From Rhizophagus irregularis (Eukaryota), in contig NC_089434.1 of the NCBI RefSeq assembly GCF_026210795.1, positions 1,736,001-1,800,000 on the forward strand: 64,000 bases of DNA, in the 5' to 3' direction. Positions 2,257 to 64,000 of this stretch are shown here, one piece after another (within the stretch, counting starts at the first letter, position 1; every line of letters begins with the position of its first letter). Below the pieces are notes generated by a model, which worked only from the letters and a program-made list of their open reading frames with translations, searched no databases and had not been told where the DNA came from. The position numbers and the translations under genes are program-made.

Positions 2257-4450
2257 CATCAGGAATTTCCAATTCATTTTGTTCTTCGGAATGAAGATTT
2301 GGGTTATTATATATTTCAATTTCGTCTTAATTATCAAAATAAATAAATTGAATAAATACAAAAAAAACGATAGTATAAATAAATAGATTTGACATTTTAC
2401 TTACCACTAACGATATTAGACCCTTTTGTTTGTTGCGTTGTTTTTTATATTAAATTAAAATTACAATTAGTAAGTGTATGTATTGATGAATAATATTAGT
2501 TAATATACTTACTATTCTTTATTTGTAGCTTTTCAAACATTTTGGATAATTTTTTACTATTAGCTAAAATTTAAAATTTAAATTATTATAATTTACCCAA
2601 TTATTCTCTATAAGAAAACTGCTATAGAAATACATAAATAAATTTACTAACCTTTATTATTCATATTTGATGACATACAATCATTCCTATTGCTTGACTT
2701 ATAAAAATCATCAACTAGAGAAAAGTTAAAATTAATAAATATCTAACTACAAATATAATTTGAAAATACTTACTATTATTTGGAATATTAAAATCATATG
2801 ATTTTTTACTATGAAATTCTGTTTAAAATAAATGTCTAATTATTTATTACTGTTATGTAAGTAATGCAATATTATAAAATAATTTTAAATGAAAAGTTGT
2901 ATTTATATTACCTTCTAATTCCTCTATTTAATATAAAAAAAGTAATACTTATTAACAAATATTTTAAATAATAGAAATAATGTTTGTTTAAAATATTACC
3001 TTCTGTTGCATTTCTTGGTTCAGATAGATTTTCAAATTGATGAAATTTACTTGTAAGTAATATACTGTTCGTACTACTATTTGTTTTATCTAGTTCTAAA
3101 TTCCTATCTATTTCTGATTGAAATGATTCATCCGTCATATTTTGATAATATAAATTCGTTTTTTGTATCTTATAAAAAAGCGTATTATGATCAGGTCTTT
3201 TTGATGGATCAGCATCCCAACATTCTTTCATTAAATTTTTATATTCTACAGGAGTTCCTAGTACAACTTTTGGTCTAATACCATTAATAATATTTATTGC
3301 AAGATTATAATCATGCTCACGATTAATAAATGGTGGTTGTCCAGATGAAATTTCCCACATAAGTATTGCAATACTATAAATATCGGATTTAAAAGTATAT
3401 TCTTTTCCATTAATAACTTCTGGTGCTATGTAAGGAAGATTTCCATATATACATGTTGACGATTTATCAGCAACGCCACAAAATCCAAGATCACTAATAT
3501 ACCACCGATTACTAATTTCTGAAAACAATATATTCCCTGAATGTAAATCTCTATGAATTGCATTTTCCTTATGAATAAAATGAAGTGCCCTCACTATTTC
3601 AAAAGTAATATTGATATTTACTTTCCATGTAAGTTTATTATAATTTTGTTGTAAATATTCTCTTAAATTTAAATCCATAATACGCATTACAAGCATATAA
3701 TTTCTATTTGATATGTTTTGTGTTAAACCAAAGCATTTGACAATAGTAGAATATTTATTGCCTATAGTTAAATGTGATTTAGCCTATATAAATTTAAAGA
3801 CTTGTTAATAACATAAACCTGGTCACAGTAATTATAAATACATTATTTAGATCACAAACCTCTTCAAACCAACTTTTATTTGCGCTTTCAACATTTTCTA
3901 ATCCTTTAAGTATCACTTTTAATCTTCCAAATCTTTTTAATTGTTGTTTTTTAGAATCCCATTCATCATATCTTCCATCAATCCAATCTGCTGTATAAAT
4001 TTCAGAGAAACCACCTTTCGTTAGATACCTGATATTTTCTAAATCATTATATGGAACCCATTCAATTATCACATTTGGTTTAAGTGTTTCCATTTGACAT
4101 TTCTGGATTAAGTTATCAATATTAACATTTCCAGATGTCCAATTTGAAAATTTTGCTTTTAAATAATTTCGAACACAAAATTCACAATATAATGTAGCTA
4201 AACATTCTTGTTTACAATTTTCACAAGTCCTTTTTGATCCTGAATTATAAAAAATTTTATCTCGATCATAACCTCTAATTAACCGATTTATTCCATAAGT
4301 TTTTTCATCTTTAGTAAGAGAATTATCAGCAAGAACTATTTGTTTTAGAAATTCATGCCGTTTGTGTATATCATTATGGACATTATAATCTATTAATGCA
4401 CCTGATCTATTAACTGCTGCACGAACAATTTCTTCTCGAATAACAGACAT
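2257..4450 (-). CDS. TKL-like protein kinase, copy K1 (multi-exon)
   Basis: Exon 1 4450-3860 has CENCxQECLAxxYCEFC, WTSGNxxIDNLIQ, TKGGFSEIY and VILK. GT-AG intron follows; exon 2 3783-3000 has HRDLHSGN, DLG, PYIAPE. Then a 12-nt micro-exon near 2912-2923 and further short exons ending NNPNLHSEEQNELEIPD at 2257. Terminal exon not resolved. Confidence 0.9.
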
Positions 4451-4957
4451 TGAATTTTTTTTTTTTAAGCAAGCTTTAGAAGGAAGGAAGTTTTATAAAT
4501 TAAGAGCTAAGAAAAATTACGGCAAGAAAAAAAAATAGGCTGAACGAAAGTTTTTGTAGCAGAAATTGTTAGGTAATGATGATCTACGGTCTTACTAATC
4601 ACTATGCACCAAATATCGTACAAATTCTACTAAGTATTGTAATGCCGCGACTTACTTAGTAGAATTGTTAATTGTGGGGCGCAGTATTATATTTAGTTTT
4701 AGTGTATAAATTTTTTTAGTATTATAAATGTGTAATGTTGCAACCGTATGATGTATGTGTTCACTTTTATTTTTAGATATAGGAACGGGAACTAGGATCG
4801 AGATATAACTATAATAAGAAGTAGGTTCGAAGATCAAAAATTGAGATATTTTCCATGTAGAGAAAAAGGTTTACTAAAAGTAAAGAAAAATAAAATAAAA
4901 TATTTTTTATGAACTTAGAATTTATTTTGATGAAAATCATTTCTTACAAAAAGACGT

Positions 4958-14578: not shown

Positions 14579-16913
14579 TTAAAATAATTCTGAAAAAATG
14601 AATAAAATACAAATTAATAATAAGTTTAATTATTACTTTTAGAAACAGTATCAAAAAAAAAATACTTACCATCAGGAATTTCCAATATATTTTGTTCTTT
14701 TGAATGAAGATTTGGATTATTATATATTTCATTCTCGTCTATAAAATATATTTGTTAAATTATAAATAATACAAATTTTAAATAAAAATTTTGATATAAC
14801 ATTTTCACATACCATTAATATTAATATTAATATTCGCTCTTTTTATTTGTTGTATTTGTTGTATTGCTTCTTTTTTATAATAATCTCGAATATCTTTTAT
14901 TTCAAAAAAAAAAATCATTGAATATTTTAATAAAGTTCATTGTTACTTGTAATTTCTTTAAATGATATAAAATTATATTTACCATAATTTAGATTTACTT
15001 GTGACATTTCAAATATTTTGTTGGACAATTTTTTACTATTAACTAAAATCAACATACAAATTAATCATTAATGTTTGTATTAATTTGATGAATAAATAGA
15101 ATTAATTACCTTTAATAGAAATATCCACATTCTGAATATCTGACTTATTAAATTCATTAACTAAAACAAGAAAGCAAGCGTAAGTCGATCATTATACATT
15201 TTATTGTACAATTTTAAAAATATTAATAATTACTTACTATTATCAGGAATCTTAAAACCATATGATTTACTATAGAATACTATTAATATAATATTGTTTT
15301 AAAAGTTATATCAATAATATTTAACAATCATAAATAAAAAATACCATTACATACCTTCTTGTTCTTCTATTATTATTAAATTAAAAAAATTAAAACAAAA
15401 ATATTAATATACTGCATAATATATTGCATATTAAAAAAAAAATTTATAATAGATAGTAAGAAACTATACCTTCTGTCGCATTCTTTGGTTCGGGTAAATT
15501 TTCAAATCTATGAATATTACTTGAAATCAATCTGCTATTTGTAGAATTTGTTTCTAAACCATTAGGTTTATATACTATTGGTTGTAATAATTCATTTTCC
15601 ATATTTTGATATGATAAATAAATTTCTTTTATCTGCTTCCTAAGCGTTTTTATATTAGGTCTTTTTAATGGATCAGCATCCCAACATTGTTTCATTAGTA
15701 GTTTATATTCTAAAGGAGTTTCTGGCACAATTTTTGGTCTCATGCCGTTAATAATCTTCATTGCTAGACTATAATCATGTTCATAATTTATAAATGGTGG
15801 TTGCCCAGATGAGACTTCCCACATAAGCATTGCAATACTATATATATCAGATGCAAAAGTGTGTTCACTTCCAGCAATTAATTCAGGTGCTATATAAGGA
15901 AGATTTCCATATATACACTTTGATGATTTATCAGCAGGTCCACAAAATCCAAGATCACCAATAAGCCAACAATCAAGAACTCGTAAATACAAAATATTTC
16001 CTGAATGTAAATCTCTGTGAATGGCATTTTCTTTAACGATTCTATAAAGTGCATTGATTATTTCAGAAATAATCTTAATCCTTTCTTTCCATGTAAGTTG
16101 ACTATGTTTTTGTTGTAAATATTTTCTTAAATCCATATCCATTTTTCTCATTACAAGCATGTAATTTCCATTTAATGGATCTTGTGTCAAACCAAAACAA
16201 CGGACAATATCTACCCATTTATTTCCTATAGTTAAATGGGATTTAGCCTATAAAATTTAAAACTTTTATTATACAGTAAAATATAAAATGTATTTAATTT
16301 TAAATGAAATTAGATAACAAACCTCTTCAAACCAATTTCGATTTATACTTTCAGCATCATCTAATCTCTTAAGTATAACTTCTTGAGTTCCATTTCTTAC
16401 TAATTGTTGATTTTTAAAATCCCATTCTTCATAATATCCATCAATCCAATCTGCAGTGTAAATTTCGGAGAATCCACCTTTTGTAAGATAATTAACGTTT
16501 TTAAAATTATTATATGGAATCCATTCAATTACTTTATTCGGCATGAAAGTTTCCATTTGACATTTTTGTATTAAATTATCAATATCATCATTTCCAGATG
16601 TCCAATTTAAAAAATTTTCTTTTAAATAATTTCGAACACAATATTCACAAAATGATGTAGCTAAACATTCTTGATTACAATTTTCACAAACTCTTTTTGT
16701 TCCTGAATTATAAATAATATTATTTCGATCATAAAATTGACATAATATTTTTATTAATTTAGTTTTTTCATCATCTGTAAGAGATTTATTAGATAAAAAT
16801 AATTGTTCATGAAATTTATTTCGTTTGTGTATATCATTGTAAATATTATAATCAAATGACATATGTGCTTTCAAACACAATTCATAAATCAATTCATATC
16901 GAATATTAGACAT
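14579..16913 (-). CDS. TKL-like protein kinase, copy K2 (multi-exon)
   Basis: ORFs 16269-16913 and 15444-16190 are exons 1 and 2, with the same motifs and intron position as K1. Downstream short exons are traceable to NPNLHSKEQNILEIPD (14670), with an inferred last exon E-L-F-stop at 14589-14579. Confidence 0.9.
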
Positions 16914-17204
16914 AATGAAAATTAATTACGAATTCAATCAATAATATTGGATTAATAATAAAAAAAATTTTTGAATTTGATAAAAAAAAAAGCATGAAAA
17001 ATTTCAGAATAGGACTTTTAAACAATTTATATTCTATTTCGTAAGTAAGTTTCCGCGATCAAGGATCAGCGTTTGTAAAATTGCGCCAATTTCTTTCTTT
17101 AGCAAATCATTTCTATTCTAAGATTATAAAACCTTTTATTTTATATTTTTACATACAAAATTTCATTCAACAATGGAATTAAAAATTTTGAGTAATTTAC
17201 GATC

Positions 17205-26688: not shown

Positions 26689-28966
26689 TTAAAATCCATC
26701 TAAAAATAGAATACATATAATAATATAAATAAGTAATTAAGATATCATTTATACAATATTAAGAAAATATTAAGAAACTAACCATCAGGAATCTCAAATT
26801 TATCTTGATCTTCTGAATGAAGGTTTGGATTATTATTTATTTCGTCATCATCTATAAAAGGACAAAAATATTTAATTTAAATATTGCAAAAATAAAATGA
26901 AAATTTATAGTAAAAAACATTACTTACCATTAACTGATCCTTTCATTTGTTGCATTGTTTCTTTCTTATGATCATTTTGAATGTCTAAATTTTTAAATAA
27001 ATAAGATTATAATAAATATTTTCTAATAAACGACTAAAATTTAAAATAGTATTACTTACCATTCTTTGAACTTATTTGTAAGCTTTTAAATACTTTAGAT
27101 AATCTTTTACTACCACCTAAAATTGAGATAAATTTTGTATCATTATCTCAAAAATTTGAATATATAAATAAATTACCTTTAATAATACTATTTATTCTTG
27201 ATGTTTTATTAATTCTCTGATCGTTTGAATTATTAAAATCTTCAACTAAAAAACGAAAATTTGATTAATAAATATTTCATCAAATGAAACAATCAATAAA
27301 TACCTACTATTATCAGGAATACTAAAATCATATGTTTTACTATGAAATGCTATTTAAAAAATAAGAAAAATAGGTTATAAATTATTTAATAGTTAATAAA
27401 ATAACAATAAAAAAGCTAACCTTCTTGTTCTTCTATAATGTATAATAATTTAAATTAAAAAAAATTAGTAACGTCATCATATCAAACAAAAAACTTAGCA
27501 AATAATACCTTCTGTTGCATTTTTTGGTTCGGGTAAATTTTCAAATTGATGAACTTTGCTCGTAAATAATCTGCTGCTTATATAATTTATGCTAGTTTTT
27601 ATTTCAAAATTATTCATTGCTTTTGATTGGAAAAATTCATCTGGCATATTTTGATATGATAGATGAATTTCTCTTATTTTTTCCTGAAGAGATTTAATAT
27701 CAGGTCTTTTTAATGGATCAGCATCCCAACATTGTACCATTAAATTTTTATATTCTAAAGGAATATCTGACATAATTTCTGGTCTCATACCATTAATTAT
27801 ATCCATTGCAAGGTTATAATCATCATGCTTATAATCAATAAATGGCGAATATCCAGATGAAATTTCCCACATAAGTATTGCAATACTATAAATATCAGAT
27901 GCAAAAGTAAATCCTTTTCCATTAATAACTTCTGGTGCTATGTAAGGAAGATTTCCATATATACTTTCCGATGATTTATCAGCAGGTCCACAAAATCCAA
28001 GATCACCAATAAACCATCTATCATTATGTTGTGAATATAATATGTTTCCGGAGTGCAAATCTCTATGAATTGCTTTTTCAAGTTGAATAAAATAAAGTGC
28101 ATCAATTATTTCAAAAGCAATTCTAATTTTTTCTTTCCATGTAAGTAGATTATAATATTGTTGTAAATATTTTCTTAAATCCATATCCAATTTCATCATT
28201 ACAAGCATGTAATTTCCATTTGATAAATTTTGTGTTAAACCATAACATCGAACAATTTCTGCCCATTTATTATTTATAGTTAAATGTGAGTTAGCCTAAA
28301 TGATACATGCCATTGTTAATATAAAAAACTTTAAATCTCATAAAAAAATTTAAAATATAATCATATTGTGTATACCTCTTCAAACCAACTTTGATTTGCA
28401 TTTTCAACATTTTCTAATTTTTTAAGTACTACCTTTTCATCTCCAAATCTTTCTAATTGCTGTTCACTAAAATTCCATTTTATATAACTTCCACCAATCC
28501 AACTTGCTGTATAAATTTCAGAAAATCCACCTTTTGTTAGATATTCAATATTTTTTAAATTATTATATGGAATCCATTCAGCTACCGTATCTGGCACAAG
28601 TGTTTCTAATTGACATTTCTGTATTAAATTATCAATATCATTATTTCCGGATGTCCAATTTTTAAAATTTGCTTTTAAATAATTTCGAACACAATATTCA
28701 CAATATGATGTAGCTAAACATTCTTGATTACAATTTTCACAAATTCTTTTTGTTCCTGAATTAGAAAGAACTTTATTTCGGTCATAAGTCTCAGTTATGT
28801 AATTTATCGCTTCAGTTTTTTCATCATCTGTAAGAAGTTTATCATCAAGAATAATTTGTTTTTGAAATTCATATTGTTTGTGCATGTCAGTGTGAATATT
28901 ATAATCAATTAACGAATATGCTCTCTGAACTGTCGCATAAACTAATTCATATCGGATAGTAGACAT
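26689..28966 (-). CDS. TKL-like protein kinase, copy K3 (multi-exon)
   Basis: ORFs 28361-28966 and 27495-28208 carry the kinase motifs HRDLHSGN/DLG/APE. Micro-exon AAGAACAAGAAG is present; the last exon is D-G-F-stop after a tttttag acceptor at 26700. Confidence 0.9.
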
Positions 28967-31239
28967 AATGCAATTTTTATTATAAAGGTTTAAAATGAAA
29001 ACTTTTTTTTATTTTATTATTAAAATAAAAATAAATTGTAAAAATGAAATTTTTTTTTTCAAAAAAAAATTAAAATTCAAAATTCCGAAACAAAGAATTT
29101 TGGAATGATCTGAAATGTTATGTAACAATTACACAAACAAGTTTAAAATAGACATCATAAACTATTTTTAAACATGTTTATCGCTATAATAAATTTTACA
29201 TTTTCTATAAATAAATACTGTAACTAAAAATAAAAATACATCTAAGTGTAAAGTTATAAAATAATTTCTTTTAATTTGACGAAAGAATTAAAAGAATGAA
29301 AATAGTAGTGATTATATTATCGTTACTTCGTGGCTATGATTTTTTTTGCAAACTGAAAATTTTCTTGTAAAATCAGTGAACCAAAAAAAAGTATATATTA
29401 TGTAAAAAGAATAACTCAATTCTATATATTATAAAATTTTCCTATAATACTAACAAATTTATCAATAAAATAAATAAAAAATTTTGAACAGTGTCTCAAT
29501 TTATAAAATTCATAAAATTATAATTATTAAATAGTATTTATTTTTGGTTTCAAATTTTCACAGCAAAAACCTATAAGAAAATAAACAACATGTTAGAAAA
29601 AACGTTCTTTTATAAAGTTATCAAAAGTCAAGTTCATAGTTCAAATTTCTATAATATTGTCTTGCAAGTTGATAATGCACCTCTTAATACTTTTCCGCCA
29701 AAAACTAGATCGAATCAATATAAACGTAGGAACATACACATAATATTCGTACAATAGAAGTAATTATACAGTAAATGTAAATTATTTTATGCACTTTTAC
29801 GATGATATAAATATTCTCATCTATAAGCATTTGATCTAAAAAATATATCTTAAACGAGAAGTTAAACATCAACATCTCACTTTCGGTAGTAACATTTTTA
29901 AGCTTGTTTTTATCATTGTAAGCGATGTCAACCTTTCAAAGGTACGGTTCCTATGATTAACTTTATCACTTATCTCTCGATAGATAAGAAACTTGAGATC
30001 TCCAATTTTATCACAATCGATTTAACGTCACTAATAAGGTTATTATTACAAACGTTAACCGAGAAAGTATCACTAAAAAGAAATCTTTCCTAGGAATGAT
30101 ACAACCATTTCGGAGATAATTCTATGAAGTGATAATAAAATGAATTTTGAAAGTTTGAAGGTATATATATACTTGCAAAAATCTTTCCGGATTCATCATG
30201 ACTAATAATAAAATAGACTCTTGTTCAGTGGATTATAATGAATAAATAATAAGTAAAAAAATTAATTTATTAGTTAAAAATTTATGCGAAAGAAATGTTT
30301 AATATGATTTACATGAAAAATTCTCATGAGTATTTATCATGAGTATTTATCATGAGTATTTGTTGAATTATTGTTATGAAATTTTTCGGTCATACGATAG
30401 CCCGCATTTGAGTGCGGAAAATGTGACTTTGTTACAAACCTAATTTCAGAATTTTTCATGGAAATGAGTCATGAGCCAAAAGAGACGAATCTTGATAATT
30501 CGCAAAATAAAAATGCCATATATCACAGCCGGCTTATCTCATATTAGAATGTCTGAATGTACGATAGAGAATTCAGAGATCTGTTGGTCATCATTTGCCA
30601 TTGATCAAGGACCGCTTCAAATAGAAAAGACTTCATTTTTATTGAAATTTAAAACTACCAATTTATACACGCCGTATTACCCTTAAATAATCCGTCCAGA
30701 TTTTATTTACATAATTACTTTTTTTATTAATAAATTTATTAAAACGTCATGTGAAATTAAATTATGTCCTGGTAAATAACGACCAGTCACGTGACATAGA
30801 AAATTCCTAACTATTCTTTTAAAATATATTAACTAGTTTGGGTTTGAAAAGGAGGACCAAAAATAAGAAAAAAAAATATTTTCTGGTTTTGAAAAAAAAA
30901 ACTGAATAAAAAAAAATAATAAAAAAAAGGTAAGCGGCAACACGATATACTGCGGCTGATCGCATCACCCAGGGGAATAAACTACCGTAGTATCATAACA
31001 AAAAAAAAATCTGATCAAGCTTTCCTGAATTAGCCACAAAAATCTTCACGAGTCAACCAACTGAAATAGATCAGACGCAGATATCGCAGATATATCGTTA
31101 TTTAGGCCATCTATTAGTCATGACCATGAAAAATTACTCATATTGTCATATTGTCAAACAATTGTATTATGCAAGATACTATATATCTTATTATTAGTCA
31201 CTGTGTATTCGAAAAAGTATTTATATACCCTCAATACCC

Positions 31240-43206: not shown

Positions 43207-45476
43207 TCATAATTCTAAAAAAAATGAGTGAATACAAATTAATAAAGAGTATATTTTTTTTTTATATTATTTAAAAATAATGATTATACTAACCATAAGG
43301 AATTTCCAATTTATTTTGTTCTTCCGAATGAAGGTTTGGATTATTATGTATTTCATTCTCATCTATAAAATATATTCTTTAATTTACAAATAATACAAAT
43401 TAATTAAATTTTGATAAATATTTTTCACATACCATTAATATTAATCATCGTTCCTTTCATTTGCTGTCGTATTGCTTCTTTTTTATAATAATCTCGTACA
43501 TCTTGTATTTAAATAAAAATCATTGAATATTAATGAAATAATAATATTATCATTATTAAATATTTTAGATGAATATATGATTGTACTTACCATAATTTAG
43601 ATTTACTTGTGACGTTTCAAATATTTGGGATAATCTTTTGCTATTAACTGAAATTATTAACATACAAATTAATGATTATATCATAATTTAATGCATAAAT
43701 AAAAATTAATTACCTTTAATAGAAATATCACCATTTTGAGTATTCAATTTATCAAAATCATCAACTAAAGTAAGCGTAAGTAAGTCGTAATACAATAATT
43801 TTATACATATAAATAATTACTTACTATTATCAGGAATAGTAAAATCATATGATTTACTATAATATCCTATTTGCATAATATGATTTTAAAATTATTTATA
43901 TTAATAAAATCTGACGAACTTTAAATAAAAATTATCATTACATACCTTCTTGTTCTTCTATTATTATAAATAGTAAAAAATTAAGATGTTAAATAATAAT
44001 AAATTTATTAATAATAAGAAAATAACTATACCTTCTGTTGCATTCCTTGGTTCAGGCAAATTTTCAAATTTATAAATACCACTTGAAGACGACCTATCAT
44101 TTATATAATTTGTTTCTAAACCATTAATTTTATTTATCTTTGGTTGTAATAATTCATTTTGCATATTTTGAAATGATAAATGAATTTCTCTTATCTGCTT
44201 CTTGAGCGTCTTTATATTAGGTCTTTTTAATGGATCGGCATTCCAACATTGTTTCATTAATATCTTATATTCTAAAGGAGTTGCTGATACAATTTTTGGT
44301 CTCATACCGTTAATAATCTTCATTGCAAGGTTATAATCATGTTCATGATCTATAAATGGTGGTTGTCCGGATGAAATTTCCCACATAAGCATTGCAATAC
44401 TATATATATCAGATGCAAAAGTATATTCGTTTCCAGCGATTATTTCAGGTGCTATATAAGGAAGATTCCCATATATACTCTTTGACGATTTATCGGCGGG
44501 TCCACAGAATCCAAGATCACTAATATACCAATAATCATTGAATTGTGAATATAATATATTTCCAGAATGTAAATCTCTATGAATTGCATTTTCTTTAAAA
44601 ATTTTATAAATTGCATTAATTATTTCATAAATAATTTTAATCCTTTCTTTCCATGTAAGCTGATTGTGATTTTGTTGTAAATATTTTCTCAAATCAAAAT
44701 CCATTTTTCTCATTACAAGCATATAATTTCCATTTAATAGATCTTGTGTTAAACCGTAACATCGAACAATATCTTCCCATTTATTGCTTATAGTTAAGTG
44801 TGATTTAGCCTATATAGGGATTTAAAATTTTTTTTAATTAATAAAAATATAATGAATTTTAAATAAACAAATTTAGATAACGTACCTCTTCAAACCAATT
44901 TCGATTTGCACATTTAACATTTTCTAATCTCTTAAGTATAACCTTATGAGTTCCAAATCTTATTAATTGTTGTTTTTTAGAATCCCATTCTTCATATTTT
45001 CCATCAATCCAAATTGCAGTATAAATTTCGGAGAATCCACCTTTTGTAAGATATTTAATATCTTTTAAATTATTATATGGAATCCATTCAATTATTTTAC
45101 TTGGTATGAAAGTTTCCATTTGACATTTTTGTATTAAATTATCAATATCATTATTTTCAGATGTCCAATTTGAAAATTTTTTTTTTAAATAATTTCGAAC
45201 ACAATATTCACAATATGATGTAGCCAAACATTCTTGATTACAATTTTCACATATTCTTTTTGTTCCTGAATTATATATAATTTTATCTCGATCATAAAAT
45301 TTATATAATATTTTTATCGCTTCAGTTTTTTCATCTTCCGTAAGAGATTTATCAGATAAAAGTGTTTGTTCATAAAATTTATATTGTTTGTGTATGTCAT
45401 TGTGAATATTATAATCAGTTGACGTAAATGCTTTCATACCCGCTGTATAAACTAATTCATATCGAATATTGGACAT
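43207..45476 (-). CDS. TKL-like protein kinase, copy K4 (multi-exon; closest to K2)
   Basis: ORFs 44859-45476 and 43964-44722 show the same exon series. Introns and flanks align with K2. Confidence 0.9.
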
Positions 45477-46853
45477 AATGAAAAATTTTTCAATTACAAA
45501 TTCAATTAATATTATTAAATTGATATACGGTAAAAAATGAGCGAAATTTTAGAGTCCGTTCAGTAGAATATCCGATTTTGTGTTAATCCGGATAAAACGG
45601 ATAATTAAAAAAAAATTCCTTTACAGTGCCGGCCCTAAATTTTATAAATCACGTGACTTCGGATAATAGTTTGGACGAACTTATTCTACTTTACTCTGGG
45701 TTCAAGGTTATTATCCTAGACCCTATGTATAAATAATTTTTTTAAGTATCTTTCCCGTGATAGTTCAATTGAGGTCTAGGTTATTATCTATTTTAAGGAC
45801 ACTCAAATAGCTTAGCAACCGGAATATCCGTGTAAAATACGGGGTTTTTAATCAATTTATATTCTATTCCGCAGTAAATTCCCACGATCTAGGATCAGAC
45901 TTTCACCAATTTCTTTCTTTAGCAATTTATTTACTACTCCTTGTATTCTTGTAATACATTTAATTTATTTCTTTAAATATTTTAAAATGGAGATCTAATT
46001 TTGAACAAATTTCATTCAATAATAAAACTTTAAGTAATTTACGTGTTACTTATTTGTCGTACTACATCTTTGTGAATTAATTATGTTGATTATGATTGGT
46101 AAACTTTTTCTTTTGTTTGTTTACGCAAATTTCTTTATAACATTGAATAAAGAAACAGACAACAATAATAACTTTTTTTATTGTTTATATCTTGCATGCA
46201 TTGTAAATAACTTTATTAAAAAGGAAAAGTAAAAGCCAATTTCATTGCATTGCTGAAAATATGGTCGAGTGGATTTTATTATTTATTATCAATTATCGTT
46301 ATTTTTATACATTTTATTATTTATCAATTATCAAGATAATGAATATTTCGTAACATACTGTACATGACAGATTAGAAGTCAGGATTAAAATATATATGTA
46401 AATATTAAGTTTTATGTCAATCACTCAATTCAGTCCGGCGCAAGCCTCTGTATCGGATAATGTTGGCTTAATCCTGAACAGAATGATTTATTTAAGAATT
46501 TATCTGCGTTGTCGATAATACTATCATCGTTGCAAATATTATATTTTCGAAAATGACCGATTTTGCTTATGTTATATGTATATATACACACACTTTTAAT
46601 AATAAGGTTTCATTCTTTATACCTGAAAATATTCAGGATTATTAGATAATTAGTTTTCTGATAGACTGATTTAGAAGATCTGGACGAATGTGTAGATAGA
46701 GAAACTGTGGTTGACTTACATGAAATAGTTCCCTCATTAATTAGTGAAAAGGTCCGAGGGGAATAAAGATTCCTCCTATTCATTTGAGACAGACTCATCC
46801 GAAGATTTTGATTCAGTTGAGACAATCGTGGTAAGAGAAAAAAAGGCTATCCC

Positions 46854-47327
46854 TCATAAGCAACGAAGGAAGGCACGACCGAGAAAGGTTAAGCGATTGA
46901 TGGTTTGAAGTGGGCCGAGCCAGAGGGGTTCGAAGAACCAGGTGTTTGCATGATCATTGGTAATTTTTATTGGACTTATTCTTATGTTTATGAAGATCAA
47001 CGTCAGGATAATGCTAGGTTCAGAAAATTTTTCTTCTAATAAAATCGAGACAATTGTATCTTTCGTTAAATCTAAAACATCTTTATTCACAATGTCTACA
47101 ATCATAATTAATCCAAAGGGATACCCAGCCTCCGTTATCAGTAAATACCGATTCTGAATGAATTGAGAAATTATTACTCCGGAGCCTAATATATTTTTCT
47201 CATAGTTTTTATGGTATGCGCCATCAGCTAATATTTTGAGAGGATCTTCATAAATATACATTTCTCCTGCAAATCCATCCAAGTCGCTTGGATAAATGAG
47301 AAGAATACGTCTTTCTAATCGATTCAT
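46854..47327 (-). CDS. Hypothetical protein, intronless, in a higher-GC island
   Basis: 157-aa ATG-initiated ORF; no motif recognised. Confidence 0.4.
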   Translation of the reverse strand: MNRLERRILLIYPSDLDGFAGEMYIYEDPLKILADGAYHKNYEKNILGSGVIISQFIQNRYLLITEAGYPFGLIMIVDIVNKDVLDLTKDTIVSILLEEKFSEPSIILTLIFINIRISPIKITNDHANTWFFEPLWLGPLQTINRLTFLGRAFLRCL

Positions 47328-48036
47328 ATTTTAAAACATGTAAGTTCTATACTTAGATTTCAAATTGATATGCTATTCCGGAGCTGTGATCATCAGCTCG
47401 GAAGATTTATTGCTGAACTGAACCACATGCATGTACTCCTGTGCGACAAAATAGATTGATCACCGGATAGGGTCTGTGCGACATAATAATTTTCAAAGAA
47501 AATATATATGCTAACTACCTCTATTTTTTTCCCACACAAACATGAGAAAAATGTAAAAGAAAGTCTACACGCAATACAGGACCTACCGTAAAAGTAAATA
47601 TTGACGACAAAAGCATATGTTATGAAGAGCTAAGGGACTCGCAATTTCAAGATCTACACGAATTAGCCAACTTTGAGTCTTGCGGGTAGATCTCCATGTG
47701 AAAAGGTATGAAGATTCCATATACATGTGCTTTCATAGAGCTCTTGGCATCATACGACAATGCTAATCACTTTTCTTATCTCCTTAACTTTTCCCCAGCA
47801 AGATATAAAGCATGAAAGAACTCGTGGAAGTTCAGCCAACCTTCCCGCAAAAATATTCCCAAAAAAATAACGTAAAATAAGGTATGTATATACCAGAGGT
47901 TACGCTTGATGAGAATGAAAGTTTCTCACTGTGGCCTTGTATTTAGGAAATCAAGATGTCTTCCAGTGTAGATAATGAATTATAAGTCTTAACTTCCGTT
48001 ATCGTAATGCAGGAAATAAAAACGTAATTTTCGTGA

Positions 48037-48328
48037 TTGAGATTTCTAAGGATAAACATGTCTCTGATTATTGAAGAAGAAGTAAGAAAGAAGTTAAAGA
48101 AGTTAGGGCCAATCAATCATAATGACTTTCTCTGTCAAATTTATCCTGAGGAGAGCCTATTTGACGACATTCTTCGCAGAATAAAAAATATGGGTCCAGT
48201 TGTTGACAGAAATGAGGTTATGCGCTGTGAATATATTTCAACAATTCTTTACACAGCTGTCAGTCTTCTTAAAGATTTGCTTATCTTACCTCAGATGACA
48301 GTAACAGGTGCTGAAAGTTCCGGTCGTG
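48037..48328 (+). pseudogene. Crinkler-type REase-fold domain, N-terminal half
   Basis: DDILRRIKNMGPVVDRNEVMRCEYISTILYTAVSLLKDLLILPQMTVTGAESSGR; breaks where the family normally continues VDYAIK (family recognised from memory). Confidence 0.65.
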
Positions 48329-49571
48329 ATTTAATTTACAGTATATTCTATAATTAGACACCTCTAGTTTAACATAAAAATGCCACAACTCTGTCAACAA
48401 TTTTATTGTTAAAAAGGAGCTTCGTTTGGCCCAAAAGATTCAAAAGCTCCACGTTATTGTGCTACGCATAAGCCAATTGGTCATGTTAACGTGAAGACAC
48501 AGTGTCAAGAAGATGGCTGTTATAAGTTTCCTCATTTAGGTTTCTCTAGCTCAAAAGCAACTTCATGCGTCACTCATATGAAAGATGGAATGATTCACTT
48601 AAGGGTCAGAAAATGCTTAGAACCTGGATGTACTACACGCGCGGTTTTTAATGTTGTTGGCTTAGATAAGGGCAAATTCTGCGCTAAACGCGCTAAACAC
48701 AAAAAACCAGAAATGATTGATATCCAAACTAAAATTTGTAAATATTCGGGTTGTCAAAAAAAGGCGCTCTTTGCTGTAGAGGGTCATCACAAACTTTCTG
48801 TGGTCAGCATAAGCAGGATGGCATGATTATTATTGCAAGCAGAAAGCGCGCACACTCAGATTGTTATACTCGTCCTTACTTTAATGTCCTGGGAAAGCAC
48901 AAGGCCAATACTGCGCTAGACACAAAACAGCTGGTATGGTTGACGTAGTAAATCGGCGGTGTGAAAAAGCTTGTTGTATGACCATACCGACTTTTAATCT
49001 TTTGGAGAAAAAAGTGCACGTTTTTGCGAAGCCCACCGAAACCCTGAAATGGTTAATGCTGTTGGCCCGAAGTGTAATAATATTAATTGTCAAAAAAGAG
49101 CACTATATGTTATAAAATGTCACGATGCTTCACACATAAAGATAAAGGTATGATAGCACAATCTTCACGTTTATGCATGATCTCAGATTGTAAAAAGCCT
49201 GCTACTCACGGACTTTCTAACCCAATTAGGTGCGAAAAACACTCCACAGATAATATGGTTGATCTAGTCCAAAAAATATGTTCTAATTGTGGATTACTTG
49301 ATATCCTTTTACAGGATCAAAAGTGCGCTGATTGTAGCACTTATACTAAAGCGAAAGCAAGAGCACGTTTGGCAAAGCAACTTCGAGTGAAATATATTTT
49401 AGACGTGAACAATATTCTATACGAAGCATACGATTCCATTGTAGAAGATTGTGTGTGTTCAAAAAAGCGTTCAGACTTTGTCATTGATGCAGACACACAT
49501 AAAGTTGTACTGGAAGTAGATGAGTATCAACACAAGAAAGGGGAATATAACTGTGAGGTAAAAAGAATGTG

Positions 49572-49806
49572 ACGGATGAATTTCATAATAAAATTAATGA
49601 AGAAATCGTTCATCATAACATCATGTTGTAGCACAACCCGCTTTTATCATTCTAAGTAAACTTGCCCTTAACAATGCTACAAAAATTGGAGAGGCAAGCT
49701 TATCCGAGGTATATACGACGTACGCGCCTGAATTTACTTCCACACTTATATACTTCAGAGAAGCTATTTACGGCATACGGGTCTAATTTTACCTGTATAC
49801 TTATTC
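49572..49806. mobile_element. 235-bp insertion splitting the endonuclease at R-M|W-D-I
   Basis: Bounded by TGTG on both sides (49568-49571, 49807-49810); removing it with one TGTG restores AGA ATG TGG GAT ATT. Confidence 0.7.
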
Positions 49807-49863
49807 TGTGGGATATTGCGCAAGCACTTGGCATCCCTACTCTCTTTATTCGCTATAATCCTG

Positions 49864-50359
49864 ATAGTTACGAAATGTTCAACGGAATTACAAAAGATAG
49901 TAATGATAGGGAGAGAAAACAAGAATTGTTATATGCTTGAGCGATGCAGTAAAATCGCCATCTGCTGAAGAATTGTCGTGAGGAAACATGCTGACGAGAG
50001 AAAGTATCCTGAAAATGGAGGAAGTTTATTATAGTTACGGAATGTTCAATGGAATTACAAAAGATAGTAATGATAGGGAGAGAAATCAAGAATTGTTATA
50101 TGCTTGAGCGATGCAGTAAAATCGCCATCTGCTGAAGAATTGTCGTGAGGAAACATGCTGACGAGAGAAAGTATCCTGAAAATGGAGGAAGTTTATTATA
50201 GTTACGGAATGTTCAACGGAATTACAAAAGATAGTAATGATAGGGAGAGAAATCAAGAATTGTTATATGCTTGAGCAGTAAAATCGCCATCTGCTGAAGA
50301 ATTGTCGTGAGGAAACATGCTGACGAGAGAAAGTATCCTGAAAATGGAGGAAGTTTATT
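49864..50359 (+). repeat. Three tandem copies of a 167-bp unit
   Basis: Copies start at 49864, 50031 and 50198; nearly identical, with the third missing 5 bp. Confidence 0.95.
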
Positions 50360-50877
50360 AAAAAAAGAACAGTTTAATAATAAGGATGATAATATCACTC
50401 TCCCTTCTACACAAAAGTTGCTAGGATCCAGAATTCCTTCGAGTTGTCTATCTGTTCTATGATGGATACGATAGCACTAAGTACAAGATAACGACTATAT
50501 CAGAAGTTTGATTCAAGAATGAAATACATGAAAAAGCAGATAAAGCATTATGAATTTGTATAACTATTGTGAAATTGACCCAAACAAACATTTTGTTTCT
50601 GTCATGTTTTTCTGTATTTCTGTGATGCAATAAATTTTTTTTTTAAAATCATCATTAGTGAGAAGGTTATGAACAATTTTTTTCCTGAGATCTATAATCG
50701 AAAGAAGGGCGTACACTCGTTAAAATAGCATAACACATCAGTTTAGTAGTGATCGTTTAACGGACACATGTTTCCGATATCCTACTGCGCATTTTTCAAC
50801 AGGTGAGAAAATGTCTCTAGCAATCTTTTTTTTTGCTTTGCATCACTATTTTCACTAACTCGGTTCACAATTTCTTA

Positions 50878-51101
50878 GCCACGGACTGGTATTTCATCCT
50901 ACATAGTACCGAAGGTATCTACTGTACAAGTAAGACTGAGTATCGAATCTTACTAACGGAAGACGCCATCAAAAATCACGCAAGAATGTGAAGAGGGTTT
51001 TTGAAATTATAGTGTTTGCCGTGTTAAAAGATAGGGTATCGGATAGTGAAGAACCCGCAAATAAGAAGCGCCGTGTAGAAGAGATAATCAAGAAAAAATA
51101 A
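50878..51101 (+). pseudogene. Crinkler-type REase-fold domain, C-terminal half
   Basis: ATDWYFILHSTEGIYCTSKTEYRILLTEDAIK, then a frameshift, then RKNVKRVFEIIVFAVLKDRVSDSEEPANKKRRVEEIIKKK-stop. Confidence 0.7.
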
Positions 51102-54080: not shown

Positions 54081-54660
54081 ACTTTTTATTTATTTATCTA
54101 TTTATTTGCTTTTTTTTTATCTATTTATTTGCTTTTTTTTTATCTATATATTTGCTTTTTTTTAAAAAACAAAACAAAGCGATTTATTATTTTGAATCAA
54201 TTCAAGCAAAGCTATTACTTGATATGATAATTTAATTATTTTTTAGCCCATTAATTTCTTTGAATTTTTTTTTATTTTTAGGTTTATTTTTTTTAAAAAA
54301 AAATATTAATCATAGAAGAAAAAAAAATACTTTTTTTTATTGTATAATGCCGTGACATAGTAACAAATTTTTTTTTTGTACAAAAAGTACAAGAAAAATT
54401 ACATTTGGCATTTAGGTAATACGCTTCTAAGTTCTAACCATAAATGTATACTAATTTAATGAGTTTATAATAAATAAGATTACAACTTTATATGGTGTAA
54501 CATTATACAATAGTAAATCATGCTAAATTTGAATGTATAGTTTTAAAAGGGCGTAAAGACTTGTTTTTTGTTTCTATTTGTTTATTATACCAATTTATTG
54601 TTTAGAGTTGATAAATATAGTAGATATTCTCTTTTTAACAAATTAAAATTTTATAATATT

Positions 54661-56974
54661 ATGTCTACTATTCGAGAGGGATTAATTCATGCAACAATCA
54701 ATAAAGCAATTACATTAATTGATTATAATAATTACGATAGTGTACACAAACAATTTGAATTTGTAAAACAAACGATTCTTGCTGATAATTCTCTTACAAA
54801 TGATGAAAAAATTGAAGCAATAAGTTCATTTAATAAAGATTGTAATCGAGAAAAAATTGTTCGTAATGAAGGGACAAGAAGAATTTGTGAAACTTGTAAC
54901 CAAAAATGTTTGGCTATATCATATTGTGAATATTGTGTCCAAAATTATTTAAAAACAAAATTTTCAAGTTGGTCATCTGGAAATAATAATATTGATAATT
55001 TAATACAAAAATGTCAAATTGAGTCACTTATGCCAGATATGATAGTTGAATGGATTCCATATAATAATTTACAAAATATTGAATGTCTAACCAAAGGTGG
55101 ATTTTCTGAAATTTATACAGCAACTTGGATTAATGGAGGATATGAAGAATTGGATTCTGAGAATCATCAATTACAAAGATTTGGAACTCATCATGTAATA
55201 CTAAAAGAGTTAGGAAATATTGAAAATGCAAGTCAAAATTGGTTTGAAGAGGTTTGTAATAAACTAATAATTTACTTTTAAAGGATTTAATGTTTAAATT
55301 ATAATTTGAATTTAAAATTATTTTTTACAGGCTAAATCAAATTTAACTATAAGTAATAAACATCCATCAATTGTTCAATGTTTTGGTTTAACACAAAATC
55401 CATCAAATGAAAATTATATGCTTGTAATGAGAAAGAAAAATGCTAATTTAAGAGAATATTTACAACAAAATCATAATCAACTAATATGGGAAGAAAGAAT
55501 TAAAATTGCTTTTATAATAATTAATGCACTTTATTATATTCATAAAGAGAATTCAATTCATAGAGATTTGCATTCTGGAAATATACTATTATATTCCAAA
55601 TTTAATAATTATTGGTTTATTAGTGATCTTGGATTTTGTGGTCCAGCAGAAAAACCATCAACAAGTATATATGGAAATCTTCCTTACATAGCACCTGAAA
55701 TTATTAATGGAAAAGAATATACTTTTAAATCTGATATTTATAGTATTGGCATGCTTTTGTGGGAAATTTCATCTGGACAACCACCATTTAATAATCATGA
55801 ACATGATTATGATCTTGCACTTAATATTATTAATGGTATAAGACCAAAAATTATATCAGAAATTCCTTTGAAATATAAAAATTTAATGATACAATGTTGG
55901 AATGCTAATTCATTAGAAAGGCCTGATACTAATATGCTTTTAAGAGAAATAAGAGAAATTATGTTATATTATCATAATAACCCAAATGAATTACCTCAAC
56001 TAAATGTAAATATAGATAAAAAAATAAACTATGAAAACAAAAGCAACAAATTATTTACAAGTAAAATTTATAAATTTGAAAATTTACCTGAACCAAAAAA
56101 TGCAACAGAAGGTATAATTTATTAATATTTGTTAACTATATTTAATTTTCTCTGTTATTATTATTACTAATTCAATCATTTTTTTTTAATTTAAATAATA
56201 ACAGAAGAACAAGAAGGTGATATGAATTTAATACTTATTCTTATTAAAAAACAATTAATCATTAACAAATTAAAAATATATCTGTTTATTTAATAGCATT
56301 TTATAGTAAATTATATGACTTTAATATTTCAAAAAATAGTAAGTGTTTTTAAGTTTATGTTTAATTATATGGTCTAGTGTAAATAATTATTCTATTTTTA
56401 GTTGATGATTTTGGTCAATCAAGTAATCAGAATAGTAAAAGAATAAATAATATTATTAAAGGTAATTACAAATATTCAGCCTATATTAAATAATTACTAA
56501 CTAGTATTTTAATTTTAGCTAGTAGTGAAAGATTGTCCAAGGTATTTAAAAATTTACAGATAAATTCAAAAAGTGGTAAGTAAATTATTAAATAAATAAA
56601 TACTCAAATTAGAGTTTATTTGTTTATTTATAAAAAATAAGTACTTATTAAATGTTATTTTATTGATAATAGTTGATATACAAAATAACAATTATAGAGA
56701 TACAATATATCAGCCACAAACTGGTGATATTGATGGTAGGTAAACTATTATTTATTTATTAAAAATTTTTTATTAGACAATAACTAATTGTATATTATTT
56801 TTGTTTCATAGATGATGATGAATGTAATAATCCAAATCTTCATTCAGAAGAACAAGAATAATTGAAATTCCTAATGGTTTGTTTATTTTTTTTCAAAATT
56901 ATATAAAACTATTTATATTAATATTTACTAATGCATTTATTTATATCATTTATTTTAATTTAGATGGATATTGA
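54661..56974 (+). CDS. TKL-like protein kinase, copy K5 (inverted relative to the others)
   Basis: Exons read directly: 54661-55251, 55331-56111, 56205-56216 (12 nt), 56297-56338, 56402-56461, 56519-56575, 56673-56735, 56812-56876, 56964-56974. An in-frame TAA at 56859-56861 trims the last few conserved residues. Confidence 0.9.
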
Positions 56975-61269: not shown

Positions 61270-63548
61270 TTAAAATCCATCAAAAAAAAAATGCATATAA
61301 ATAAACAACAATTAGTAATTAAAATATTATTATTTATAAAATATTAATATTAAGAAACTAACCATCAGGAATCTCAAATTCATCTTGTTCTTCCGAATGA
61401 AGGTTTGGATTATTATGTATTTCATCATCGTCTATAAAAATATAAAAAAGTATTTATTTAATTAAAATATTGCAAAATTAAAAATTTATAATAAATATTC
61501 TACTTACCAATAACTGGTCCTTTCACTTGTTGTATTGTTTCTTTTTTATAATCTTTTTGAATTTCTATATTTTTTTAAATAAAATAAATAAAATTTATCA
61601 AATAAATATTGCATAAACAATAAACTAAGATTTAGATTTATTTTACTTACCATTCTTGGAATTTATTTTTAAAGTTTTAAATACTTTAGACAAACTTTTA
61701 CTGCTGGCTATAATTGAGATAAATTTGTATTATTATTTCAAAAATTTTTGGATATATAAATAAATTACCTTTAAAAATACTATTCATTTTTGATGTTTTA
61801 TTAATCTTTTGATCGTTTGAATTATTAAAATCTTCAACTAAAAATGAAAATTTGGTTAATAAATATTTCATCAAATGAAATTTTAATAAATACTTACTAT
61901 TATCAGGAATACTAAAGTCATATGTTTTACTATGAAATGCTATTTAAAATGGTTAAAAAATTATTATAATAGTTAAGAAATAGTAATAAAAAATATTAAC
62001 CTTCTTGTCCTTCTATAAACATTTAAATTAAAAAAAGAAATTAGTAATGTCATATCTTATAATCAATAAACAAAAAAATCTTATAAACAATACCTTCTGT
62101 TGCATTCTTTGGTTCAGGTAAATTTTCAAATTGATGAATTTTGCTTGTAAATAATCTGCTACTACTTGTATAATTTGTACTAGTTTTTGTTTCAAAATTA
62201 CTTTTTGCTTTTGATTGAAATAATTCATTTGGCATATTTTGATATGATAGATGAATTTCTCTCATTTTTCTCCGAAGAGATAAAGCATCAGGTCTTTTTA
62301 ATGAATCAGCATCCCAACATTGTACCATTAAATTTTTATAATCTAAAGGAATATTTAACATAATTTCTGGTCTCATACCATTAATTATATCCATTGCAAG
62401 ATTATAATCATCATGATTATAATTAATAAATGGTGGTTGTCCAGATAAAATTTCCCACATAAGTATTGCAACACTATAAATATCAGATTTAAAAGTATAT
62501 CCTTTTCCATTAATAACTTCTGGTGCTATATAGGGAAGATTTCCATATATACTTTTTGATGATTTATCAGCAGGTCCACAAAATCCAAGATCACTAATAA
62601 ACCATCCATCATTAAATTGTGAATATAATATATTTCCAGAGTGCAAATCTCTATGAATTGCCTTCTCTTTATGAATCCAATATAGTGCATTAGTAATTTC
62701 AAAAGTAATTCTAATTCTTTCTTTCCATGTGAGTCGTTCATTATTTTGTTGTAAATATTTTCTTAAATCCATATCCAATTTCATCATTACAAGCATATAA
62801 TTCCCATTTGATGGATTTTGTGTCATTCCATAACATCGAACAATGTCTGGCCATTTATTATTTATAGTTAAATGTGATTTAGCCTGTAAATATAAAAACT
62901 TTTATTGTAAAACAAAAAATTGGCTAATTTTATAAATACATTTAGAATACAAACCTCTTCAAACCAACTTTGATTTGCACTTTCAACATTTTCTAATTTT
63001 TTGAGTACTACTTCATGACCTCCCATTCTTTTTAATTGTTGTTTTTTAGAATCCCATTCTTCATAACATCCATTAACCCAATCTGCAGTATAAATTTCGG
63101 AGAATCCTCCTTTTGTAAGATATTTAATATTTTCTAAATTACTATATGAAATCCATTCAATTATCACATTTGGTCTAGTTGTTTCCAATTGACATTGCTG
63201 TATTAAATTATCAATATCATCATTTCCAGATGTCCAATGTGAAAATTTTCCTTTTAAATAATTTCGAATACAATATTCACAATATAATGTAGCTAAACAT
63301 TCTTGATTGCAATTTTCACAAATTCTTTTTGTTCCCGTATTTTGAAGAATTTTATCTCGGTCGTAAGATTTAGTTATATATTTTATTGCAAAAGTTTTTT
63401 CATCATCTGTAAGAAGTTTATCAGCAGCAAGAATTGTTTGTTTTTCAAATTCATGTTGTTTGTGAATATCAGTGTGAATATTATAATCAATTAACGAATA
63501 TGCTCTATTAACTGTTGCATAAACTAATTCATATCGAATGGTAGACAT
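61270..63548 (-). CDS. TKL-like protein kinase, copy K6 (multi-exon; closest to K3)
   Basis: ORFs 62868-63548 and 62050-62826. The N-terminus MSTIRYELVYATV is shared with K3. The acceptor of the last D-G-F-stop exon reads TG instead of AG. Confidence 0.9.
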
Positions 63549-64000
63549 AATGCAATTTAATTACAAAAGTTTAAAAAGAAAAATTTTTTTATTGATTTAA
63601 AAAAAAAAATAAGTATATGAACTGGGAAAAGAATTTTTGGACAACGAAATTTAAGTTTCAAAAGATTCCCGAATAGTGTAACCATAAATTCGAATTTTTA
63701 GTATGATCAGCAGAATAATGTCATGTGACAATTACACAATTAAAGTTCAAAGATAAACAAAATAATATATTTTTAGATATGCTTGTTGATCATCCCTATA
63801 AATAATTATTTTTTTTTAAAAAAAAAACTAAAAATAGAAGATAGCGTGATGAAAAATTTAAAAATAACATTGACAGTAGTGGTGATAGTGATACATGAAT
63901 TTTTTTTTTTATACATGGAAAAATTTCTTGTAAAAAAAAGCTTTAAAATTAGTAAATAAAATAAAAATAAATTATATTATATGAAGCAGAATAAATGAAT

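What the first reader, a model, noticed from the sequence alone, without database searches (positions are those of the whole stretch)
48037..51101. Viral-type endonuclease gene sits in place of the catalytic core of a Crinkler-type nuclease gene
Seen: two colinear + strand fragments that read as the N-half (...NEVMRCEYISTIL...ESSGR, ending ~48328) and C-half (ATDWYF...KDRV...EEPANKKRR, from 50878) of one domain. They are separated by ~2.5 kb containing an unrelated endonuclease gene in the same orientation. From memory of the family, the missing middle (VDYAIK...TEGK...QN) carries the REase catalytic residues. This resembles a homing-type or recombinational invasion of one nuclease gene by another. 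The right junction also has CACTAAC...TTTCTTAG, and splicing from weak GT sites at 48323 or 48326 would rejoin the halves in frame; this last point is speculative.
Basis: partly seen in the sequence, partly recalled or inferred. Interest (0 to 1): 0.75.

Follow-up and report, generated by a model that had tools for sequence, protein, structure and literature searches.

The report
Viral nuclease invading fungal nuclease genes
A DNA-cutting gene whose closest relatives are in giant viruses sits, now broken, inside the active site of a mycorrhizal-fungus nuclease gene, and related copies occupy the same spot in other members of that gene family, so it is likely a self-spreading "homing" element in a fungal nucleus.

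Summary
Both halves come from one subfamily of AM-fungal SAM + PD-(D/E)xK nuclease genes, and 261 nt of host DNA, including ExK and QN, is missing. The insert is a decayed EsV-1-7-repeat + Vsr/EDxHD-like endonuclease gene. Its nearest non-fungal relatives (about 40% identity or less) are free-standing giant-virus genes.

Corrections: the cassette starts at 48341, right after the D-Y-A codons, not at about 48328. CACTAAC/TTAG belongs to a native 76-nt host intron (50803-50878) that RNA contigs splice normally. No splice across the insert was seen.

New evidence: metagenome locus L021 shows the same junction cleanly, in a host 229/230 identical to an empty gene. Three Funneliformis gene models fuse other paralogues to the same cassette at about this site. 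Filled hosts are not one clade (p-AU 0.005), cassette copies cross genera, and the nuclease shows purifying selection.

Best reading: a homing-type, site-specific element, with the core loss probably a later deletion. Cleavage, a clean right junction and splicing are not shown. The cassette starts with GT at the exact boundary, so a nuclear spliceosomal homing intron is not excluded.

The parts
47469..48160 (+). Upstream repeated block (also upstream of host paralogues L036, L038), followed by an L068-like piece that stands where the host's SAM exon and first intron should be; supplies the gene models' ATG at 48064
   Evidence: blastn 71-80% to L036, L038, L057, L068; no tblastn hit of the SAM part of P0007 in the window
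48161..48340 (+). Host N-half (exon 2 of a SAM + PD-(D/E)xK gene) up to the insertion site after the D-Y-A codons; last 12 nt scrambled in this copy
   Evidence: 154 of 162 nt to empty L022; junction alignment
48341..48379 (+). 39-nt leader of the cassette, beginning GT exactly at the host boundary
   Evidence: identical but for 1 nt in filled locus L021
48380..50553 (+). Decayed endonuclease gene: EsV-1-7 cysteine repeats, a CxxC pair and a Vsr/EDxHD-like nuclease domain (intact relative P0042, 488 aa)
   Evidence: PF19114; tblastn pieces mostly 74-89% to P0042; fold search
49572..49810 (.). Secondary ~240-bp insertion inside the nuclease domain, flanked by a TGTG duplication; a repeat with other copies in the same runs
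   Evidence: absent from L018, L019, L040, L051; depth 2-3 times the single-copy level
49864..50360 (.). Tandem triplication of a 167-bp unit, which includes part of a further ~125-bp insertion
   Evidence: TRF 3.0 copies, 97%; an RNA contig of X17 skips 329 nt here
50554..50652 (+). 3' tail of the cassette shared with L018/L019 (88%), including a T-run; weak likeness to about 50680
50653..50793 (.). Unassigned single-copy filler at the right junction
   Evidence: no significant match to loci, window or host middles; single-copy depth
50803..50878 (+). Native 76-nt host intron (GTGAGA ... CTAAC ... TTAG)
   Evidence: same position in L022, L023, L024, L030, L031, L032; spliced in RNA runs X16 and X18
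50879..51101 (+). Host C-half exon, with a frameshifting 10-nt deletion near 50977
   Evidence: 94 of 98 nt to L023/L024; alignment to L024

Best explanation
The insert is a decayed copy of a mobile endonuclease cassette that sits just after the conserved D-Y-A codons of a multi-copy fungal nuclease gene family and likely spreads by homing. The intact enzyme is predicted to read a long site with its cysteine-rich repeats and to cut empty family members near that motif with its Vsr-like domain; repair from a filled paralogue would then copy the cassette in (inferred). Because the target family has many paralogues, losing some would cost little, so the element would not need to self-splice (inferred). 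The gene was likely acquired once from a giant virus by Glomeraceae and then moved between paralogues and genera. In this copy the nuclease, the host SAM exon and 261 nt of host right of the site were later lost or broken; that the core loss is secondary is inferred.
For: Same left junction in the window and in L021 at DNA level. Gene models P0031 (F. caledonium), P0040 and P0043 (F. geosporum) stop host sequence at G-E-E or E-S-S-G and continue into the cassette. The site lies in the most conserved motif: 30 of 30 empty sites read continue with ATC. Each filled host is nearer an empty gene than another filled host, apart from a near tie for the window (L022 48/51, L021 47/51): L021 50/51, P0043 50/51, P0040 47/51; one clade of the 4 filled hosts is rejected, p-AU 0.005. 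L021 is 229/230 nt identical to empty L024, and 4 informative sites group window+L022 against L021+L023/24, with 0 grouping the two filled hosts. Rhizophagus cassette copies are not one clade, p-AU 1e-5 and 0.004. Nuclease dN/dS is 0.22-0.40 against four loci; P0042 is an intact single-exon ORF. The fold's top two matches are Vsr (Z 8.0, rmsd 4.5, 135 aligned) and homing endonuclease I-Bth0305I (Z 6.6, rmsd 3.9, 93 aligned). Fungal copies form one clade (SH 99, 8 of 92 rows); the best named non-fungal hit is Terrestrivirus at 38%.
Against: No cleavage or homing was tested. No clean right junction was seen: L018 and L051 run 670-1000 nt past the nuclease into a convergent different nuclease-like gene, L040 into a convergent host-family gene end, and L019 is 5'-truncated with no host upstream. 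Only 1 of 31 readable sites in metagenome loci is filled. At DNA level, monophyly of window+L021 is not rejected (p-AU 0.089). The Funneliformis evidence is predicted proteins only, so exact junctions are unseen, and mis-framed gene models or mislabelled assemblies could distort the cassette tree. The trees use 51 and 444 columns. Viral relatives in the 17 loci examined are intergenic, not inside split genes. Foldseek alone gave no match at E 0.001 or better, and Z near 8 is within the tool's range for common arrangements.
Confidence: 0.55

Rival explanations
1. One old insertion of a viral gene at this site, later spread passively by ectopic recombination or gene conversion among paralogues through the left-hand homology; the nuclease plays no part.
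For: Shared downstream gene in L018 and L051 at the same ~91-92% identity as the nuclease; truncated copies without host (L019, and a second diverged copy in the DNA runs); DNA monophyly of two filled hosts not rejected; C-terminal module swapping is described for CRN genes (PMC6131194, passages).
Against: Purifying selection on the nuclease and cross-genus tree incongruence are unexpected for passive cargo; host identity switches right up to the site.
Confidence: 0.22
2. A sub-case of homing: the intact cassette is a spliceosomal homing intron (shintron) running from the boundary GT to an AG before the host's ATC, so filled hosts stay functional; this copy lost its 3' end.
For: GT (GTA) at the exact boundary in both filled alleles with DNA, chance about 3-6% from base composition; codon-boundary insertion; host exon of L021 intact, with host dN/dS 0.04-0.21 on small counts; no group I/II signal; VSR-like shintrons are described in mirusviruses (PMC12768974, passages).
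Against: GTATAT was 0 of 43 native donors sampled, though 26 of 43 begin GTA; no acceptor followed by host sequence in L018, L019, L051 or L040; the window's AG|ATC at 50688-50692 is not followed by significant host likeness (20 of 600 background at best); an RNA-run contig crosses the left junction unspliced (X15, 48310-48460; may be DNA).
Confidence: 0.2
3. Replacement is the design: the element always deletes the ExK/QN core, which holds its cut site, like an engineered drive.
For: In the window the lost 261 nt start exactly at the left boundary.
Against: The window's right end is not shared with any of four other cassette loci; the filler is single-copy; the locus has many other lesions.
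Confidence: 0.1
4. A random one-off insertion or an assembly chimera.
For: The locus is heavily decayed and lies in repeat-rich DNA.
Against: Both junctions are bridged in 4 of 4 DNA runs; same junction in L021.
Confidence: 0.02

Closest known systems
Vsr-like / EDxHD homing endonucleases (I-Bth0305I; 'fractured genes' of Dassa et al. 2009; PMC3239194 and PMC2677866, passages read)
   Same: Vsr-like nuclease domain behind a modular N-terminal repeat region; a free-standing ORF in the same orientation between two halves of a conserved gene, including an intein-less case
   Different: Those are phage or bacterial, with NUMOD repeats, group I introns or split inteins. This one has EsV-1-7 repeats, no group I or intein signal, lies in a eukaryotic nuclear genome and targets a dispensable multi-copy family.
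Shintrons, spliceosomal homing introns of mirusviruses (PMC12768974, abstract and passages read)
   Same: Endonuclease ORF (VSR-like among the types) inside an element starting with GT at a fixed site of a target gene family; no self-splicing RNA structure
   Different: Splicing and a 3' acceptor are not shown here; the host is a fungal gene, not a virion gene. The authors report an apparent lack of eukaryotic equivalents.
EsV-1-7 repeat + endonuclease genes of Nucleocytoviricota (e.g. Terrestrivirus AYV75498)
   Same: Same architecture and invariant R-P-D, E-x-D-E-x-Q-H and R-x-N-P-D motifs
   Different: Viral copies are intergenic, next to major capsid protein, TFIIS or topoisomerase genes; whole-protein identity about 40% or less.
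Crinkler-associated REase genes of AM fungi (PMC6131194, PMC5289972, passages read; Zhang et al. 2016 not held, known only through these)
   Same: Multi-copy PD-(D/E)xK nuclease genes; one paralogue is named 'Crinkler family protein' in UniRef and one lies beside a Crinkler-header gene
   Different: The host proteins carry a SAM header, not the Crinkler header; secretion was not tested.
Target-specific retrotransposons with REase-like endonuclease (R2; site preference recalled, fold hits)
   Same: Fixed insertion site in a multi-copy gene; zinc motifs plus an REase-fold nuclease
   Different: No reverse transcriptase in the cassette; no poly(A) end seen.

Membership tests
EDxHD / Vsr-like homing endonuclease | Vsr-like nuclease fold | tested here: met
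   AF2 model of P0041, pLDDT 79.8; top two of 48,161 chains are 1cw0 Vsr (Z 8.0) and 3r3p (Z 6.6); moderate Z, and Foldseek E only 0.015-0.03
EDxHD / Vsr-like homing endonuclease | Conserved acidic and histidine active-site residues | tested here: inconclusive
   D74, E87, D89, H93 and D124 invariant in 14 of 14; residue-by-residue superposition on I-Bth0305I not done; the window has P to S before the D
EDxHD / Vsr-like homing endonuclease | Occupies a fixed conserved site, with empty alleles elsewhere | tested here: met
   (DNA for 2 filled alleles, gene models for 3)
EDxHD / Vsr-like homing endonuclease | Cleaves the empty allele and drives homing | not testable with these tools
   needs biochemistry
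Group I/II intron | Catalytic RNA core | tested here: not met
   no Rfam match at E 1 or better in the window region; only one chance lncRNA hit in five cassette loci; distal parts of longer copies unseen
Spliceosomal homing intron (shintron) | GT donor at the insertion boundary | tested here: met
   GTATAT at 48341 and in L021; hexamer not among 43 native donors
Spliceosomal homing intron (shintron) | Branch point and AG directly before the resumed host sequence | tested here: inconclusive
   no intact right end available
Spliceosomal homing intron (shintron) | Removal from mRNA | tested here: inconclusive
   not among 15 of 16 joints shown in 4 RNA runs of contigs; only the decayed allele was tested
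Crinkler (CRN) effector (host gene) | Crinkler N-terminal header PF20147 in the protein | tested here: not met
   0 of 16 paralogues; SAM_1 in 5 of 16; a separate header gene upstream in L038
PD-(D/E)xK nuclease (host gene) | Profile match spanning the D...ExK core | tested here: met
   PADLOC PD_DExK E 1.7e-8 to 2.5e-9 in 3 of 3 paralogues; Atlas lead HSDR_N 0.90; the AF2 model of this domain was unusable
TIR DNA transposon or retrotransposon | Terminal repeats, transposase or reverse transcriptase | tested here: inconclusive
   no transposase or RT domain; no repeat of the left end over 8 nt in available downstream DNA; true right end unseen

The most novel reading that the evidence does not exclude
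A giant-virus Vsr-like endonuclease has become a nuclear spliceosomal homing intron (a natural gene drive) in arbuscular mycorrhizal fungi. It inserts at the active-site motif of a Crinkler-associated nuclease family and moves between paralogues and between genera of these supposedly asexual fungi.
Probability: 0.2. Interest if true: 0.88.

Novelty: new variant of a known kind. Interest (0 to 1): 0.72.

Why it matters
Homing endonucleases in eukaryotic nuclei are known mainly from rDNA group I introns and inteins (recalled). A virus-derived one that targets a multi-copy protein-coding family would be a different survival strategy: redundancy of the target replaces self-splicing, or the spliceosome does the job. 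It would show a giant-virus gene staying active as a selfish element after entering a fungal genome, beyond the decayed viral region reported in PMC10640383. Homing between genera would also imply DNA exchange among AM fungi. An intact 488-aa enzyme and natural empty target sites exist, so the claim is directly testable, and it would give EsV-1-7 repeats a measurable DNA-binding function.

Tried and rejected
No own genome was held. Scans of viral contigs with fungal-clade alignments found nothing; prokaryote genome contigs gave nothing. The 12 viral matches to the 17-nt left end carry neither protein and are taken as chance.

Rfam found no group I/II intron in the cassette. Of 16 viral-type loci one has a group I hit, 2.1 kb downstream of the nuclease and not enclosing it. 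PDB sequence searches found no relative of the nuclease. The AF2 model of the host nuclease domain failed (pLDDT under 50) and was not searched.

I tested whether the right-junction filler is degenerate host middle or distal cassette: not significant (best 25 of 200 shuffles; 20 of 600 background windows at best, post hoc anchor). The RNA joint 48328-50877 was rejected as a splice: AT..TT ends, and its 46-nt side equals a GGLV-type paralogue piece. RNA runs lack cover over parts of the insert; this is not taken as evidence. Terminal repeats were not found.

Five look-ups of earlier findings for this element returned nothing. Ten literature searches listed no paper describing this element; subscription papers, Zhang et al. 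2016 and all supplements were not seen.

Rows dropped: gene models of the window's own locus (P0001, P0002, P0034, P0038) and mis-spliced P0026 from the host protein tree; P0031 and P0023 lack the 51-aa stretch and were not in it; P0034-P0039 and P0047 were removed from the nuclease tree where present.

Full report
Setting. The window is AT-rich fungal DNA with many kinase genes; gene models from this locus are R. irregularis database proteins (P0001, 100% to the N-half). No whole genome was held, so evidence comes from proteins, one metagenome scan (62 loci) and contigs of 8 sequencing runs.

Host gene. The halves belong to a large AM-fungal family of SAM + nuclease proteins (27 hits; alignment). 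The C-terminal domain matches a PD-(D/E)xK profile (E 1.7e-8); D185, E204, K206, Q207 and N208 of P0007 are invariant or nearly so. None of 16 paralogues has a Crinkler header, but L038 has a Crinkler-header gene just upstream (E 2.7e-9), so 'Crinkler-associated' is the fair label. Both window halves are closest to the same empty subfamily, L022-L024. The window copy is a relic: its SAM exon is replaced by unrelated DNA and its last exon has a 10-nt deletion.

Breakpoints. L021 shows the clean left junction: host codons run through R-V-D-Y-A, then a 39-nt leader beginning GT, then the nuclease ATG. The window has the same leader from 48341, preceded by 12 scrambled nucleotides. All 30 empty sites read continue with ATC. 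On the right, cassette homology ends at 50652 (weakly to about 50680), a single-copy filler follows, and host resumes at about 50794-50797. The host has lost 261 nt: 199 coding and a 62-nt intron. The D codon lies left of the site; ExK and QN are in the lost part. The CACTAAC/TTAG signals belong to native intron 50803-50878, spliced in RNA runs X16 and X18, where the contigs continue from insert-side DNA into the last exon. Contigs bridge both junctions in 4 of 4 DNA runs.

The cassette. It encodes EsV-1-7 repeats and a nuclease domain with invariant R-P-D, E-x-D-E-x-Q-H and R-x-N-P-D. The predicted fold (pLDDT 80) ranks Vsr and I-Bth0305I first and second of 48,161 chains (Z 8.0 and 6.6); Foldseek gave only weak rows. 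The window copy is dead (a stop, at least 4 frameshifts, two insertions and a triplication), but F. geosporum holds an intact 488-aa single-exon version (P0042). Fungal copies form one clade (8 of 92 rows, SH 99). Named members are Rhizophagus and Funneliformis only. Other whole-protein hits among the 120 listed of 680 are 28-40% identical, the best named one from Terrestrivirus. In 17 viral-type loci the homologue is intergenic, beside major capsid protein (3), TFIIS (3), topoisomerase II and others. Origin from a giant virus is inferred from this; the tree was not rooted and no donor is identified.

Recurrence at one site. Besides the window and L021, gene models P0031, P0040 and P0043 join host sequence ending at G-E-E or E-S-S-G to the cassette. 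That they stop there implies a junction within a few codons, but the DNA was not seen. The hosts differ: P0043 is 50/51 to empty P0007/P0010 and 40/51 to the window; L021 is 50/51 to empty L022-24; holding the four filled hosts in one clade is rejected (p-AU 0.005). At DNA level L021 matches empty L024 at 229/230 and the window at 153/162, with 4 informative sites against and 0 for a filled clade, though the AU test is not significant (0.089). The cassette tree mixes genera (p-AU 1e-5 and 0.004). P0031 matches the window even in off-frame stretches (34/34, 13/13), which implies very close DNA; contamination or gene-model artefacts are not excluded. Nuclease dN/dS is 0.22-0.40 (L018 and L019 are near-identical, so three independent comparisons).

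Results against a simple picture. No other copy shows the right junction. L018 and L051 continue into a shared convergent gene of another Mucoromycota family; L040 meets a convergent host-family end; L019 and a second diverged copy in the DNA runs are truncated. Only 1 of 31 readable metagenome sites is filled. The cassette may therefore be longer than the nuclease gene, or some copies are displaced relics.

Mechanism. Shown: a fixed left boundary in a conserved motif, empty and filled alleles, a polyphyletic set of filled hosts, and a conserved Vsr-like nuclease. Inferred: recognition and cleavage of the empty site, copying by homologous repair between paralogues, and later deletion of the core in this copy, in line with its many other lesions. 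Open: whether the intact element is spliced. The boundary GT has a 3-6% chance by composition, but GTATAT was not among 43 native donors, and no acceptor-host junction was found. In the window the donors at 48323, 48326 and 48341 would all be in phase with the 50878 acceptor, yet none was seen used.

Comparison. It works most like the Vsr-like/EDxHD homing endonucleases of phage fractured genes (PMC2677866, PMC3239194; passages; review PMC3943268, passages) and may parallel mirusvirus shintrons (PMC12768974, passages). Membership of either is not established, since cleavage and splicing are untested. Other papers seen: PMC12477816, PMC6131194, PMC5289972, PMC10640383 and PMC8647823 (passages) and PMC12957317 (abstract). 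Ten searches listed no description of this element. Earlier notes of this scan report GIY-YIG or other nuclease introns in fungal housekeeping genes; they are unchecked AI notes that raised my prior for the intron reading and are not support.

Verdict. This is a real, site-recurrent, virus-derived nuclease cassette and a new variant of homing-type elements. Interest 0.72.

Noticed in passing
L038 1065-1541 (+), L021 1-318 (+), L036 447-848 (+): Short ORFs lie just upstream of the SAM-nuclease genes; the L038 one is a stand-alone Crinkler header (E 2.7e-9), L021 a weak hit (E 0.049), L036 none. With a shared upstream block and a downstream coiled-coil gene (L024, L038), the host may be part of a repeated multi-gene unit.
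   Followed up: partly
window 47500-47900: Multi-copy block, strongly covered by RNA-run contigs of many variants, found upstream of several host paralogues; function not examined.
   Followed up: partly
window 49572-49810: A ~240-bp repeat with a TGTG duplication, inserted in the nuclease domain and shared by R. irregularis gene models P0035, P0036, P0037, P0039 and P0165; possibly a small non-autonomous transposon.
   Followed up: partly
window 49864-50360: The 167-bp triplication is polymorphic: an X17 contig skips 329 nt.
   Followed up: partly
L018 1060-1696 (-), L051 860-1252 (-): Convergent gene of another Mucoromycota family with a nuclease-like GEVAGG motif (label recalled) next to cassette copies; Atlas cluster unnamed.
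   Followed up: partly
L010 6824-7156: Group I intron hit overlapping the end of a giant-virus major capsid ORF, downstream of an EsV-1-7 nuclease gene.
   Followed up: no
L035 and L047: Two host-family genes of different subfamilies in tandem about 3.5 kb apart.
   Followed up: no
window 46857-47330 (-): 158-aa open frame without a Pfam match.
   Followed up: partly
window 2911-4492, 15447-16925, 27498-29008, 43967-45548, 54547-56122, 62053-63560: Six paralogous two-exon-plus kinase genes of the expanded AM-fungal type.
   Followed up: no
window 48329-48340: Twelve scrambled nucleotides right at the left junction while flanks stay 95% like the empty allele; could be an error-prone repair scar.
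   Followed up: partly
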